Source: Candidatus Bathyarchaeum sp. (lineage in GTDB: Archaea; Thermoproteota; Bathyarchaeia; Bathyarchaeales; Bathyarchaeaceae). From it: 59,230 nucleotides of DNA. Of this stretch, positions 36,418 to 40,773 are shown in pieces. The stretch is from the NCBI GenBank assembly GCA_026014495.1, contig JAOZIF010000013.1, forward strand, positions 1-59,230, written 5' to 3'. Position 1 is the first letter of the stretch, and every line of letters starts with the position of its first letter. A model generated the notes under the pieces. It made no database searches and had not been told where the DNA came from. It worked only from the letters and a program-made list of their open reading frames with translations. A program made the translations under genes and the position numbers.

Positions 36418-36537
36418 TGGTGCGGGGGACGGGATTCGAACCCGTGGAGGCCTGCGCCAGAGGATCTTAAGTCCTCCCCCTTTTCCTAGGGGATCTATGT
36501 TTGACCCGCTATTTAGACCTGGCTCGGGTACCCCCGC
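36418..36537 (-). tRNA. tRNA-Leu(UAA) with a 32-nt intron in the D arm (best fit 22/23; 36481-36512)
   Basis: GCGGGGG/CCCCCGC acceptor, GAGGA-CTTAAGA-TCCTC, long variable arm, CCA encoded; the intron forms a hairpin with BHB-like spacing. Confidence 0.93.
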
Positions 36538-36683
36538 CACCTCAATATTCACAACGCACCTTCGACATAAATGTTACTTGTGCGCAGAGCAGTTCAAGAC
36601 TGTTTTAGGTGTTGACTTGTTTTGTTTTTGGCGTTATGGTTATAACAGTCAACATGTTAGACATATTTTGGCGGGAAAAATCT

Positions 36684-36828
36684 GGGCGGGTATAGAAAAT
36701 TATGTTGGTTTTCTACCGAAGCCTAGCCAGGATAGGGCACGAACAGCACAAAATGTTGGTGTAAGCCTCCTAACAGGGAACTGGGAGTGAGCTCGGGGTC
36801 ACGGGTTCAAATCCCGTCCCGCCCGCCA
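36684..36828 (+). tRNA. tRNA-Arg(CCU) with three introns (9/10, 29/30, 37/38)
   Basis: Removing 36693-36720, 36743-36764 and 36773-36789 gives a complete cloverleaf: GGGCGGG/CCCGCCC, G73, CGAGC-CTCCTAA-GCTCG, CCA. Confidence 0.92.
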
Positions 36829-37833: not shown

Positions 37834-38916
37834 ATGATTGCTGATGGGCTGAAATTGTTTGTCAAAATGTTTCTTGTAATCACAGTGATTTTCACGGTTT
37901 TCTTTTTCTTTCTCTCCATTGTCTTGGGGCCTGTACTATTCTATTTCACACCTGATGGGTTAACCACCAGCATGCTTTACTTGTCAGCTCTACCCGTCTG
38001 GTTCTTCACTGCAACAATATACATTCCAATAGAACTTAATTTAGGCGTACTTTTCCTAAGCCTCTGGAGCATATTCACTTTGAGCTTTGTTGCGGCTTGG
38101 AAACTAAACGAAAACTTCCATCAAACTCTCAAAGAAAGCCTCACCAAACCCACAAGAAAACTCTTAAACAGTTCCCTATTTGCCCTGCCCATCATAAGCA
38201 GCATGACATACATTGCTGTTGTAGTAATCCAAAGCGTTCAAGAAGCAGGAGGAATCCCAACAGGAACCACGCCCCTGCCCGGAGACCCATTCATGGATTT
38301 TTTAGACCTCTCCTACTCTGCCGTGATTGAAGAAATCATTTTTCGTTTAATTCCAATCGGAGCCTTCCTGATCATCCACTTATTCATAACTAAGAAAACA
38401 GAACTGGTTTCTTTGAAACAAAAACTCAAACTGTTTTTCACGGCAATTTTGCTTCCCGATCACGCCAAAAGAATGGCTGGAACAAAAACAGTAGCTGACC
38501 ACGGAATCATCCGCGGAATCAGCCCAAGCGAATGGGGCATGGTTATTATCACTTCAGTAATTTTTGGCTTAGTTCACTTTGACCCCGGAGTTAGCTGGGA
38601 GATTGGAAAAGTCAGCTCAGCCACATTTGCAGGCCTAGTTATCGCCTTATGCTATCTAGTATATGGCGTCCATGTATCAATACTCATGCATTGGTTCTTT
38701 AACTCTTACACTGAAACCTTCATTCTTCTTTCAGATTTTTACCCTACAACAATACCGCTTGTTAATGCCGTAACTCTTACAATCCTTATTCTTGGCATTC
38801 TCGGGTGGATTGTACTGCTAACTTTAGGCTACCTCAAGTTGATTAGGACACTTCTAAAAAAAGACAAAAACCAGCAAACACAAACTACGTCGAGTCCATC
38901 AATATCACTTCAATGA
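37834..38916 (+). CDS. CPBP (CAAX/Abi) intramembrane metalloprotease
   Basis: EEIIFR, FGLVH, HWFFN motifs; multi-TM. Confidence 0.88.
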   Translation: MIADGLKLFVKMFLVITVIFTVFFFFLSIVLGPVLFYFTPDGLTTSMLYLSALPVWFFTATIYIPIELNLGVLFLSLWSIFTLSFVAAWKLNENFHQTLKESLTKPTRKLLNSSLFALPIISSMTYIAVVVIQSVQEAGGIPTGTTPLPGDPFMDFLDLSYSAVIEEIIFRLIPIGAFLIIHLFITKKTELVSLKQKLKLFFTAILLPDHAKRMAGTKTVADHGIIRGISPSEWGMVIITSVIFGLVHFDPGVSWEIGKVSSATFAGLVIALCYLVYGVHVSILMHWFFNSYTETFILLSDFYPTTIPLVNAVTLTILILGILGWIVLLTLGYLKLIRTLLKKDKNQQTQTTSSPSISLQ

Positions 38917-40174
38917 GATTGCTGATTTTAACCGTTTGTTGGCGGTTCTTTTTCATTTGCTTCAGAACAACCTTTTGTTCCTCAAGTTCCTTGGGGCCAA
39001 CAATCACAGCGTAGGCAACGCCCCTTCTGTTAGCATCCGCCAAAGCCTTTGATATAGAACGACCCATAACAGCAACTTCCACAAATAACCCCTTGTTTCT
39101 AAGCATCGCAGCAAGCTCCAACACTTTTGCCATACACTCGTCCTTTACGGATATGACAGCAACACTGTTTGTTGATGTTTCTTGGGTGACTTTTTGTTTT
39201 GTTAATGCTAAAACAATTCGGTCTATTCCTTGGGCAACCCCAACAGCGGGAATTGGTTCGCCTCCAAAGAGCTCAATTAGCTTATCATAGCGCCCTCCGC
39301 CGCCCAAGGCAATGTCAAGACCCGGAACATATGACTCAAAAATCATTCCTGTATAGTATTCCAAGCCCCTGGCAAAGCCCGCTTCAACTGTTACATCTAC
39401 TTGTGCTCCGCTCTCCTGTATTAGCTCAAGTATTTTCCACAGATTGTCTACGGCATCAACAGCGCTCTCATACTCTTGAATGCTGTCTTTGATTTGCTCT
39501 AGAACCTGAAAAGCATCTTCACCTTTTATTTCAAGCAAACTCTCTAGCGTCGCTAGACCCTTTTGTGAAATACCTGCGTTGCTGGCAAGCTCAAGAGCGT
39601 CAGCCCAAAGTTTCTTGTCCAGAAGCTGCCTTACGCTGTTTTGTTTTTCGTCATCCAGCCCTTCTTGTGTCAGTATTCCCCGTAGGATTCCTGTGTGCCC
39701 AACTTTGAAGCGATAATTTTTGAGTCCCAACTTCTTGAGGATGTTGTTGGTGAGTATCAGGATTTCTGCGTCTGCTTCTGGTCTTGCAGAACCAAAAAGT
39801 TCGTAGTTTGCTTGCCAAAACTCTCGGAACCGTCCATACTGGGGCTCATCGTAGCGGTAAAGGCTGCCGACACTAAAGAGCCGCATTGGTTTGGGCTCGT
39901 TTTTAAGTTTGTTAACTACCAAGCGGGCAACAGAGGCAGTGAATTCTGGACGCATGGCCACCTTTCTGTCTCCAAGGTCTTTGAAGGTGTACATTCGTTC
40001 ACGGATTTCCTCGCTAGTTTTAGCCGCCAAAAGCTCATATGACTCCAAAACTGGAGTAATTATCTCCTCGTAGCCGTAAAGCTTAGAGATTGTTCTAGAA
40101 ACCTGCTCAACATAACGCATTCTCTGCGCGTCCACGGGAAGCAGGTCTCTCATTCCGCGAACAGTCTTGAACAC
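38885..40174 (-). CDS. hisS: Histidine--tRNA ligase
   Basis: RGMRD, MRPEFTA, YRYDEPQYGRFREF, RGLEYYTG, GGGRYD. Confidence 0.98.
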   Translation of the reverse strand: MFKTVRGMRDLLPVDAQRMRYVEQVSRTISKLYGYEEIITPVLESYELLAAKTSEEIRERMYTFKDLGDRKVAMRPEFTASVARLVVNKLKNEPKPMRLFSVGSLYRYDEPQYGRFREFWQANYELFGSARPEADAEILILTNNILKKLGLKNYRFKVGHTGILRGILTQEGLDDEKQNSVRQLLDKKLWADALELASNAGISQKGLATLESLLEIKGEDAFQVLEQIKDSIQEYESAVDAVDNLWKILELIQESGAQVDVTVEAGFARGLEYYTGMIFESYVPGLDIALGGGGRYDKLIELFGGEPIPAVGVAQGIDRIVLALTKQKVTQETSTNSVAVISVKDECMAKVLELAAMLRNKGLFVEVAVMGRSISKALADANRRGVAYAVIVGPKELEEQKVVLKQMKKNRQQTVKISNLIEVILMDST

Positions 40175-40191
40175 TCCATCTCACCAATATG

Positions 40192-40773
40192 CTATTTTAG
40201 ATTAAGCTCTGACAAAGAATAGTAAACAATTTCGCCCCTACGATTAATAACCGCAAGAATCAAGTTTTTCTTCAAATTCTGAACATACCGCTGAGTTCTC
40301 GCCAGCTTCTCCACAGAAACAGACTGCCCCTCCTGTATGCCAAAAATAATGTGCTTGGCAGTTCCTTTACCATAATCTCCGCGCTCGTAGACGCGAAAAT
40401 CCATTCCCAACCCGAAGCCTTCCCGAGCAACATATCCGCGGCTTCTTAGGTCCCTGTAAATAAGATACCTTACCCATGCATCTTTGTCAACTAACTGGAA
40501 ACGCTTGAGCAGTTCCTGAAAAACCAGCTTTTTTCCAGTTTTCTTGTCTTTGACTTCTAGGGCTCCTTTGCCCAAAAGAAACAGGGCTTCATAGAAACTA
40601 AGGTTCAGCTTGCCGTTTTCCTCTACGCCGTAGCCTTTTGATGAAAACTCTTCAATTCCTTCAACTGAAGAGACAGTGACAACATCCTCTTTCAGAGAAG
40701 CGGCAATTGGCATTTCAATTTCTGGGCTTTTCTCAGCCTCAACTTCAGATTTATCCAACAGCAAAACCTTCAA
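40192..40773 (-). CDS. endA: tRNA splicing endonuclease subunit, probably structural (non-catalytic)
   Basis: LSFYEALFL, YRDLRSRGY, DFRVYERG, LAVINRRGEIVYY; the catalytic His position reads T. Confidence 0.88.
   Translation of the reverse strand: MKVLLLDKSEVEAEKSPEIEMPIAASLKEDVVTVSSVEGIEEFSSKGYGVEENGKLNLSFYEALFLLGKGALEVKDKKTGKKLVFQELLKRFQLVDKDAWVRYLIYRDLRSRGYVAREGFGLGMDFRVYERGDYGKGTAKHIIFGIQEGQSVSVEKLARTQRYVQNLKKNLILAVINRRGEIVYYSLSELNLK

What the first reader, a model, noticed from the sequence alone, without database searches (positions are those of the whole stretch)
36684..36828. Triple-intron tRNA-Arg(CCU), including an intron at 9/10
Seen: intron 1 (28 nt, 9/10) has helix CGGG/ACCG and hairpin AGAAAA/TTTTCT; intron 2 (22 nt, 29/30) has helix GCAC/GTGT and hairpin CAGCA/TGTTG; intron 3 (17 nt, 37/38) is a strict BHB with CTCC/GGAG and CAG/CTG. 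The outer helix of intron 3 (30-31 with 39-40) adjoins the intron 2 site, which suggests ordered splicing. Introns 1 and 2 share ATGTTGGT, hinting at intron copying. Established: three-intron tRNAs are rare and best known from Thermoproteales. Position 9/10 is outside the positions I recall as common. The Arg-UCU gene in this window has only the canonical intron. Standard scanners may miss or mis-call this gene.
Basis: partly seen in the sequence, partly recalled or inferred. Interest (0 to 1): 0.8.

Follow-up and report, generated by a model that had tools for sequence, protein, structure and literature searches.

The report
Three-intron arginine tRNA with decoy leader
This is a real, conserved arginine tRNA gene of a mesophilic sediment archaeon (Bathyarchaeia), cut by three protein-spliced introns; the unusual intron beside the acceptor stem always comes with an upstream copy of the acceptor strand, which probably helps the splice site fold.

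Summary
Confirmed. Window 36684-36828 (+) is a tRNA-Arg(CCU) gene with introns of 28, 22 and 17 nt at 9/10, 29/30 and 37/38. ARAGORN and Rfam miss it. Removing the three introns gives a 75-nt cloverleaf plus encoded CCA. This product differs by 1-3 nt from intronless orthologues in sister genera.

The host belongs to Ca. Bathyarchaeum, a mesophilic genus, not to Thermoproteales. Twenty-two other species carry all three introns: exons are nearly invariant, introns diverge, and stems change by compensation. One species has cleanly lost intron 1, which fixes that junction.

Introns 2 and 3 form strict bulge-helix-bulge (BHB) motifs. They share nucleotides 30-33, so they cannot fold at once. Intron 1 is relaxed, with a G·A mismatch in the central helix. 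The shared octamer ATGTTGGT occurs in this species only and gives no evidence of intron copying.

New here: 38 of 39 distinct genes with the 9/10 intron, from several Bathyarchaeia families, carry a copy of the acceptor 5' strand (GGCGGG) 4-15 nt upstream. Only 1 of 26 genes without that intron does. The copy starts 30 nt after a conserved TATA box, at the predicted transcription start. I infer a decoy that occupies the 3' acceptor strand so that G1-G7 can build the BHB.

The scan had noted other non-canonical tRNA introns in this genome, but not this one.

The parts
36630..36645 (+). Conserved promoter: GGCGTTATGG followed by the TATA box TTATAA (36640-36645)
   Evidence: GCGTTAYGGTTATAA is kept in all genus orthologues and in other families. 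The TATA-to-decoy distance is 30 nt in 20 of 26 genes with this promoter motif (range 29-33), while the decoy-to-tRNA distance varies.
36670..36675 (+). Leader copy of the acceptor 5' strand (GGCGGG), the proposed decoy and predicted 5' end of the transcript
   Evidence: Present in 38/39 genes with the 9/10 intron and in 1/26 without it. RNAfold and RNAalifold pair it with the 3' acceptor strand/CCA end. No other tRNA gene of this genome has a conserved copy.
36684..36692 (+). Exon 1: tRNA positions 1-9 (GGGCGGGTA)
   Evidence: Invariant in 23 orthologues. Contiguous with GCCTAG in G001 and in intronless orthologues.
36693..36720 (+). Intron 1, 28 nt, at 9/10. Relaxed BHB: central helix C4-G, G5-C, G6-C, G7·A; bulges UA|U and AA|G; outer helix G1-G3 with C11-U13; 9-bp inner hairpin
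   Evidence: (3 pairs with double changes in the hairpin).
36721..36742 (+). Exon 2: positions 10-29 (D arm, 26, 27-29)
   Evidence: Mean identity 0.93, with variation only in the D loop. 100% BLAST match to an intronless orthologue.
36743..36764 (+). Intron 2, 22 nt, at 29/30. Strict hBHBh': central helix GCAC/GUGU, bulges GA|A and AA|G, outer helix A21-G23 with C31-U33, inner helix CAGCA/UGUUG
   Evidence: 4 of 5 inner pairs with double changes. The junction is fixed by species whose last intron base is T.
36765..36772 (+). Exon 3: positions 30-37 (GC + CUCCUA, anticodon CCU)
   Evidence: Invariant.
36773..36789 (+). Intron 3, 17 nt, at the canonical 37/38. Strict hBHBh' in this species: CUCC/GGAG, bulges UA|A and UG|A, CAG/CUG
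   Evidence: The inner helix is paired in only 77% of cells across the genus, so it is loop-like in some species.
36790..36828 (+). Exon 4: positions 38-76, including the encoded CCA (36826-36828)
   Evidence: Identity 0.97. 97% match to an intronless orthologue.

Best explanation
The locus is the only tRNA-Arg(CCU) gene found in a Ca. Bathyarchaeum genome. It is transcribed from a TATA box about 44 nt upstream and carries three introns.

[quoted passage not shown] The archaeal splicing endonuclease EndA cuts after the second base of each 3-nt bulge, and RtcB joins the exons. The product is a normal 75-nt tRNA with an encoded CCA.

The two halves of the D stem are used in different motifs: 11-13 in the BHB of intron 1, and 22-25 in that of intron 2. 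The motifs of introns 2 and 3 overlap (C27, G30-U33), so those two introns must be removed one after the other.

Inferred, not shown: the transcript begins with GGCGGG, a copy of the acceptor 5' strand. This copy pairs with the 3' acceptor strand/CCA end and keeps it from capturing G1-G7. G1-G7 is then free to form the intron-1 motif with the intron's ACCG and with C11-U13. After splicing, the true acceptor stem must displace the leader before RNase P can cut.

The confidence given (0.85) is for the gene model and BHB/EndA splicing. The decoy step alone I put at about 0.5.
For: Gene and junctions:
- The best BHB-scoring excision set gives tRNA-Arg(cct).
- The predicted product differs by 1, 2 and 3 nt of 75 from the intronless genes of G152, G181 and G073. 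Two of these (G152, G181) were scanned with Rfam and score 63.9-65.8 bits as tRNA.
- G001 lacks exactly intron 1.
- Exon identity is 0.93-1.00, against 0.67-0.78 for the introns.
- Seven pairs show compensatory double changes.
- No other CCU gene and no intronless copy was found in the assembly.

Enzymes:
- There are two EndA paralogues.
- The one on C115 is of the crenarchaeal catalytic alpha type and keeps the specificity-loop lysine (K39, aligned with A. pernix K44).
- RtcB is present.

Decoy:
- The 38/39 versus 1/26 association spans this order (families f1, f2, f6) and families outside it (f35, f27). It includes tRNA-Arg(CCG) genes.
- Within genus g2, G045 has both the intron and the copy, while G025 has neither.
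- The TATA-to-copy distance is fixed at about 30 nt.
- With the native leader, the computed probability of the acceptor stem falls to 0.01 and the outer helix of the intron-1 motif forms. With no leader or a shuffled leader, that helix has probability 0-0.05.
- RNAalifold finds the leader/3'-end helix unprompted.
- Control: the Arg-CCG gene of this genus has a 29/30 intron only and no conserved copy.
Against: - No RNA data exist: splicing, its order and the transcription start are all inferred.
- The acceptor sequence is GGGCGGG in every gene with the 9/10 intron, so the leader/3'-strand pairing cannot be tested by covariation.
- Because CCGCC occurs twice at the 3' end, two pairing registers are possible.
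- Secondary-structure energies still favour the leader helix after in-silico splicing (acceptor probability 0.00). Release of the decoy therefore needs something the model lacks, such as tertiary folding or RNase P.
- One gene with the intron (L057) has only a degenerate copy (GACGGG).
- G001 keeps the copy without the intron.
- The nearest-neighbour minimum-energy fold prefers a shifted register for the intron-1 central helix.
Confidence: 0.85

Rival explanations
1. The upstream GGCGGG has no RNA-level role. It would be a promoter-proximal or initiator element, or a neutral relic of a local duplication, inherited together with the intron-bearing gene version.
For: It lies at the predicted start site. 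In two genomes it is a direct tandem repeat, GGGCGGGTAT GGGCGGGTAT, which looks like a duplication. Genes with the intron in this order also share the promoter, so part of the association is common descent. G001 keeps the copy without the intron.
Against: Families outside this order (f35, f27) lack the shared promoter yet keep the copy, at a different spacing. Intronless relatives that still keep the promoter (L068, L071, L073-L075) have lost the copy. A neutral 6-7 nt relic would not survive at 0.79 leader identity while its flanks vary.
Confidence: 0.3
2. The gene is a decaying pseudogene: a tRNA broken by three insertions and never spliced.
For: Standard scanners reject it. There are no expression data.
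Against: Exons are invariant across 23 species while the inserts diverge with compensatory changes. It is the only CCU gene found. All three inserts sit in BHB motifs. Promoter and CCA are conserved.
Confidence: 0.02
3. The boundaries differ from those proposed, for example 8/9, 28/29 or 38/39, or two larger introns instead of three.
For: In this species each junction can slide by one base without changing the product (A9 = last base of intron 1; A29 = last base of intron 2; A38 = first base of intron 3). The RNAfold minimum-energy structure prefers a shifted helix for intron 1.
Against: Orthologues whose first or last intron base differs remove each ambiguity. The rule of cutting after the second bulge base fits only 9/10, 29/30 and 37/38. 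Natural genes carry each subset of introns: 9/10 only, 9/10+29/30, 9/10+37/38, and 29/30+37/38.
Confidence: 0.04
4. Introns 1 and 2 are copies of one mobile intron, as the shared octamer suggested to the first reader.
For: ATGTTGGT is shared in this species; 0.3% of shuffles give a shared string that long. Intron transposition is documented in Thermoproteales.
Against: None of the 22 orthologues shares it. Their longest common strings are 3-7 nt and differ from one another. Intron 1 is far older than intron 2: it is found across several families of the class, while intron 2 is limited to two genera. Testing 23 species makes one such hit unremarkable. Intron 2 more closely resembles the 29/30 intron of Arg-CCG, with the same boundaries CGA|AC...GYRTAA|GCC.
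Confidence: 0.04

Closest known systems
Multi-intron tRNA genes of Thermoproteales (e.g. Pyrobaculum islandicum tRNA-Pro(UGG) with introns at 25/26, 37/38 and 56/57; P. calidifontis tRNA-Glu(UUC))
   Same: Up to three short introns per gene, each in a BHB or relaxed BHB motif. They combine canonical and non-canonical positions, including 29/30. A crenarchaeal-type EndA is present. Neighbouring motifs may need stepwise removal.
   Different: The host is a mesophilic Bathyarchaeon with a 37 °C optimum, not a hyperthermophile. One intron lies at 9/10, which is not among the positions listed in the review I could read. That intron is coupled to a conserved leader copy of the acceptor strand. I found no description of such a copy.
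Split and permuted archaeal tRNAs (Nanoarchaeum, Caldivirga, Thermofilum)
   Same: Sequences outside the mature tRNA (leaders, trailers) pair to build the BHB that EndA cuts.
   Different: Here the leader is not part of a BHB and is not spliced. It is proposed to occupy the competing strand. The gene is contiguous and colinear.
Intron transposition families of Thermoproteales (Fujishima et al. 2010, as summarised in PMC4090602)
   Same: Introns are gained and lost on short evolutionary scales. Related genes here carry 0, 1, 2 or 3 introns.
   Different: I found no near-identical intron copies at different positions. The octamer match is confined to one species.

Membership tests
Archaeal EndA-spliced (BHB) tRNA introns | hBHBh' motif: a 4-bp central helix flanked by two 3-nt bulges, each closed by at least 2 Watson-Crick pairs (definition in PMC7714728) | tested here: met
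   Introns 2 and 3 meet it, with one G·U in the central helix of intron 2. Intron 1 meets the relaxed form only, with 3 of 4 central pairs and G7·A. In families outside this order (f35) its central helix is a full CGGG/CCCG.
Archaeal EndA-spliced (BHB) tRNA introns | Excision after the second bulge base yields a canonical cloverleaf tRNA | tested here: met
   ARAGORN calls tRNA-Arg(cct), 75 nt. The product is 1-3 nt from natural intronless orthologues; two of them (G152, G181) score 63.9-65.8 bits in Rfam.
Archaeal EndA-spliced (BHB) tRNA introns | The genome encodes a splicing endonuclease able to cut relaxed or non-canonical motifs, and an RtcB ligase | tested here: met
   Two PF01974 genes are present. 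The alpha type keeps the specificity-loop Lys. RtcB scores 579 bits. The subunit composition (alpha-beta)2 is inferred, not shown.
Archaeal EndA-spliced (BHB) tRNA introns | Spliced RNA and excised introns observed | not testable with these tools
Three-intron tRNA genes (known maximum in Archaea) | Three separate introns in one colinear gene | tested here: met
   The full set of three was seen only in genus Bathyarchaeum among the genomes searched.
Transposed intron families (Thermoproteales type) | Near-identical intron sequences at different positions or in different genes | tested here: not met
   Introns 1 and 2 share only a species-specific octamer.

The most novel reading that the evidence does not exclude
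An intron inserted right after the acceptor 5' strand can persist only because the pre-tRNA carries a cis-acting decoy. The decoy is a leader copy of the acceptor strand, placed at the very 5' end of the transcript. It sequesters the 3' acceptor strand/CCA end so that the splice-site motif can fold. Intron and decoy are gained, kept and lost together across Bathyarchaeia. This would be a new class of pre-tRNA folding element and a rule for where archaeal tRNA introns can sit.
Probability: 0.5. Interest if true: 0.72.

Novelty: new variant of a known kind. Interest (0 to 1): 0.6.

Why it matters
Multi-intron tRNA genes have been treated as a speciality of hyperthermophilic Thermoproteales. Here a three-intron gene is stably inherited in a mesophilic, globally abundant sediment lineage that has a cultivated representative (B. 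tardum), so it can be studied at the bench.

Such genes are invisible to ARAGORN and Rfam. tRNA counts, and completeness or codon-capacity estimates for Bathyarchaeia genomes, may therefore be too low. ARAGORN finds only 33 tRNAs in this genome.

The intron/decoy coupling suggests how a BHB can win against the strongest helix of a tRNA. It gives a simple experiment: mutate the decoy, then compensate.

Related genes with 0, 1, 2 or 3 introns form a natural series for studying intron gain and loss.

Tried and rejected
- My first in-silico splice used sequence positions instead of standard tRNA numbering and gave wrong boundaries. It was redone.
- Brute-force excision plus ARAGORN on the other long tRNA candidates of the genome was too permissive to assign their introns, so I dropped a full tRNA inventory.
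- Minimum-energy folding does not reproduce the BHB motifs: about -41 to -44 kcal/mol for the hand-built structures against -67.8 for the minimum-energy fold. Energies were therefore used only for like-with-like comparisons.
- A leader heptamer GGGCTTG upstream of this genome's Arg-CCG gene looked like a second decoy. It is not conserved in the genus and is taken as chance.
- I considered that the upstream copy is the real exon 1, or an alternative 5' splice site. In this genus it lacks G1 and U8-A9, so the product would be defective. The idea would work only in the two tandem-repeat genes (L085, L090).
- Literature: I could not check whether 9/10 is listed in the primary surveys. Sugahara 2008 and Fujishima 2010 are not held, and text search cannot handle '9/10'.
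- One pattern hit (L094) was a false positive inside a protein-coding region.

Full report
WHAT IS THERE

Window 36684-36828 (+) reads as nine bases of a tRNA 5' end (GGGCGGGTA), then three inserts interleaved with the rest of a tRNA, ending in CCCGCCC-G-CCA. ARAGORN finds only tRNA-Met and tRNA-Arg(UCU) in the window. Rfam finds no tRNA at this locus, even at E up to 10, where only T-arm fragments appear.

I enumerated every way of removing up to three segments that satisfy a loose BHB rule. The best-scoring solution removes 28 nt after position 9, 22 nt after 29 and 17 nt after 37. ARAGORN calls the 75-nt product tRNA-Arg(cct). Exons are 36684-36692, 36721-36742, 36765-36772 and 36790-36828. 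Introns are 36693-36720, 36743-36764 and 36773-36789.

WHOSE GENE IT IS

A sequence-specific scan of species-representative genomes returned only Bathyarchaeia records. They include the complete genome of Ca. Bathyarchaeum tardum M17C-01, a mesophile growing best at 37 °C. So this is not Thermoproteales.

COMPARATIVE PROOF OF THE GENE MODEL

- Twenty-three of 24 other genomes of the genus have a homologue at 82-92% identity. Twenty-two keep all three introns. G001 lacks exactly intron 1, reading GGGCGGGTA|GCCTAG.
- Across the 23 three-intron genes, exon identity is 1.00, 0.93, 1.00 and 0.97. Intron identity is 0.72, 0.67 and 0.78.
- On the hand-specified BHB structures of introns 1 and 2, 98% of cells are paired, against 35-48% when partners are slid. 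Seven pairs show double compensatory changes, and 0-2 of 500 shuffles reach the observed values, depending on the measure.
- Intron 3 has an invariant central helix. Its inner helix is paired in only 77% of cells, so it is loop-like in some species.
- Intronless tRNA-Arg(CCU) genes of sister genera differ from the predicted product at 1, 2 and 3 of 75 positions (G152, G181, G073). The two scanned with Rfam (G152, G181) score 63.9-65.8 bits as tRNA.
- In this species each junction can slide by one base. Orthologues with a different first or last intron base fix the junctions at 9/10, 29/30 and 37/38.
- The assembly (93% complete) holds no other CCU gene and no intronless copy.

THE MOTIFS

The published definition of hBHBh' is a 4-bp helix, two 3-nt bulges and at least 2 Watson-Crick closing pairs on each side.

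- Intron 2 is strict. The central helix is G24·U, C25-G, A26-U, C27-G. The bulges are GA|A and AA|G. The outer helix is A21-G23 with C31-U33. The inner helix is CAGCA/UGUUG.
- Intron 3 is strict in this species: CUCC/GGAG, bulges UA|A and UG|A, the anticodon stem as outer helix, and CAG/CUG as inner helix.
- Intron 1 is relaxed. It has C4-G, G5-C, G6-C and a conserved G7·A mismatch. The bulges are UA|U and AA|G. The outer helix is G1-G3 with C11-U13, extended by U-1/A14 and C-2/G15. The inner hairpin is 9 bp.

The motifs of introns 2 and 3 both need C27 and G30-U33, so they are mutually exclusive. Their hand-built conformers have equal energy, -41.0 and -40.9 kcal/mol. Some order of removal is therefore required, but its direction is open. 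Stepwise removal of adjacent introns is already described for tRNAscan-SE 2.0.

ENZYMES

The genome has two EndA paralogues.

- The one on contig C115 matches crenarchaeal catalytic alpha subunits best (2cv8, 3p1z_B). It aligns without gaps through the Crenarchaea-specific loop and keeps the lysine (K39, aligned with A. pernix K44) reported as essential for broad substrate specificity.
- The other lies in this window at 40192-40773 (-). It resembles the M. jannaschii and M. kandleri enzymes.

RtcB is present. A heterotetramer is an inference.

THE OCTAMER

ATGTTGGT is shared by introns 1 and 2 only in this species. The other 22 species share unrelated strings of 3-7 nt. It is not evidence for intron copying. 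Intron 2 looks more like the 29/30 intron of the Arg-CCG gene, which has the same boundaries.

HISTORY OF THE THREE INTRONS

- In the same order, many genera have intronless genes. Others have 9/10 only (G029, G045, G127, G128, JdFR-07, QDN_1), 9/10 plus 37/38 (G124), 9/10 plus 29/30 (G041), or 37/38 only (G030).
- The sequence pattern of the 9/10 intron occurs in 19 of 301 sampled Bathyarchaeia genomes; one of these hits (G224, L094) lies in a protein-coding region and is a false positive. Some hits are in families outside this order, where the gene is tRNA-Arg(CCG) and the central helix is a full CGGG/CCCG.
- It was not found in about 330 sampled genomes of other Thermoproteota classes. That pattern is sequence-specific and says nothing about other tRNAs.
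- So 9/10 is the oldest of the three introns. The full set of three was seen only in Bathyarchaeum.

THE UNEXPECTED PART: A LEADER COPY OF THE ACCEPTOR STRAND

Every orthologue keeps GCGTTAYGGTTATAA at about -52 to -39, and TTTTGGCGGGAAAAA just upstream of the tRNA.

- Over 65 distinct genes, 38 of 39 with the 9/10 intron have a copy of at least 5 nt of GGGCGGG within 30 nt upstream; 35 have at least 6 nt. Only 1 of 26 without the intron has one, namely G001, the recent loss.
- The association holds outside this order, in families that lack the shared promoter and have a different spacing. In two of those genes the copy is a direct tandem repeat.
- It also holds within genus g2: G045 has both features and G025 has neither.
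- Intronless relatives that keep the promoter have lost the copy.
- In this genome no other tRNA gene has an exact copy. The one wobble-pairing look-alike, upstream of Arg-CCG, is not conserved.
- The first G of the copy lies 30 nt after the first T of the TATA box in 20 of the 26 genes with this promoter motif, while the distance from copy to tRNA varies from 10 to 15 nt. This places the predicted transcription start on the copy.
- RNAfold on leader plus precursor pairs the copy with the 3' acceptor strand, and pairs G1-G3 with C11-U13.
- Across 26 genes, the acceptor-stem probability is 0.01 with the native leader and 0.41 with a shuffled one. The intron-1 outer helix forms only with the native leader.
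- RNAalifold finds a leader/3'-end helix unprompted, in a register that includes the CCA.

My reading is that the copy is a decoy. It ties up the 3' strand so that the strong GGGCGGG/CCCGCCC acceptor helix does not prevent the BHB next to it.

Caveats:
- The acceptor is identical in all these genes, so covariation cannot test the pairing.
- Two registers are possible.
- Secondary-structure energies keep the leader helix even after in-silico splicing, so release of the decoy is unexplained.
- No RNA data exist.
- I put this reading at about 0.5.

COMPARISON WITH WHAT IS KNOWN

Three introns per tRNA is the known archaeal maximum, described for Pyrobaculum and Thermofilum. A review lists 3/4, 20/21, 22/23, 25/26, 29/30, 30/31, 45/46, 53/54, 56/57 and 59/60 as non-canonical positions, but not 9/10. 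I could not read the primary tables.

Only three papers in the library mention both Bathyarchaeia and tRNA introns, and judging by their titles and abstracts (I read only one, where Bathyarchaeota appears in a footnote) none is about this. I found no description of a leader copy of the acceptor strand.

VERDICT

The intron-copying idea is rejected. The gene is a new variant of a known kind, and the intron/decoy coupling is the point worth testing.

Noticed in passing
window 36418-36537 (-): A divergently transcribed tRNA-Leu(UAA) gene of 120 nt with CCA lies 147 nt upstream. ARAGORN and Rfam also miss it. Removing about 30-35 nt from the D-arm region gives a class II tRNA-Leu. The exact intron boundaries are not resolved. 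Its 3' end is conserved next to the Arg gene in most relatives.
   Followed up: partly
window 40192-40773 (-), next to 38885-40174 (-): A second EndA paralogue of 193 aa lies 3.4 kb from the three-intron tRNA gene and directly upstream of a 429-aa ORF that I read as histidyl-tRNA synthetase from its sequence alone (not searched). The paralogue seems to keep Tyr/His/Lys at the catalytic positions. It resembles the M. jannaschii and M. kandleri enzymes rather than crenarchaeal beta subunits.
   Followed up: partly
L055, L057, L068, L071, L073-L076, L078, L080, L082, L083: Many Bathyarchaeia genomes carry a tRNA-Arg(CCU)-like gene whose anticodon loop reads CCCCUAA. That puts C instead of the near-universal U at position 33. 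Some genomes may have both U33 and C33 versions.
   Followed up: no
L084-L092 (families f35, f27) compared with the window gene: The same gene lineage (acceptor GGGCGGG, 9/10 intron, leader copy) carries anticodon CCG in families outside this order and CCU here. This suggests an anticodon switch within one gene family.
   Followed up: no
L085 and L090: Here the leader copy is a perfect tandem repeat, GGGCGGGTAT GGGCGGGTAT. The upstream unit could in principle serve as an alternative 5' exon giving the same product.
   Followed up: no
G000 contig C174:44666-44772 (-) and C56: The Arg-CCG gene, and probably the Arg-UCG gene, of this genome each carry an intron at 29/30. Its boundaries resemble those of intron 2 (CGA|AC...TAA|GCC), which hints at a shared origin among arginine isoacceptors.
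   Followed up: partly
whole genome G000: ARAGORN finds only 33 tRNA genes, including a doubtful 'tRNA-Stop(tta)'. A T-arm/acceptor scan finds further long candidates of 99-142 nt. The tRNA set is therefore under-called because of non-canonical introns.
   Followed up: partly
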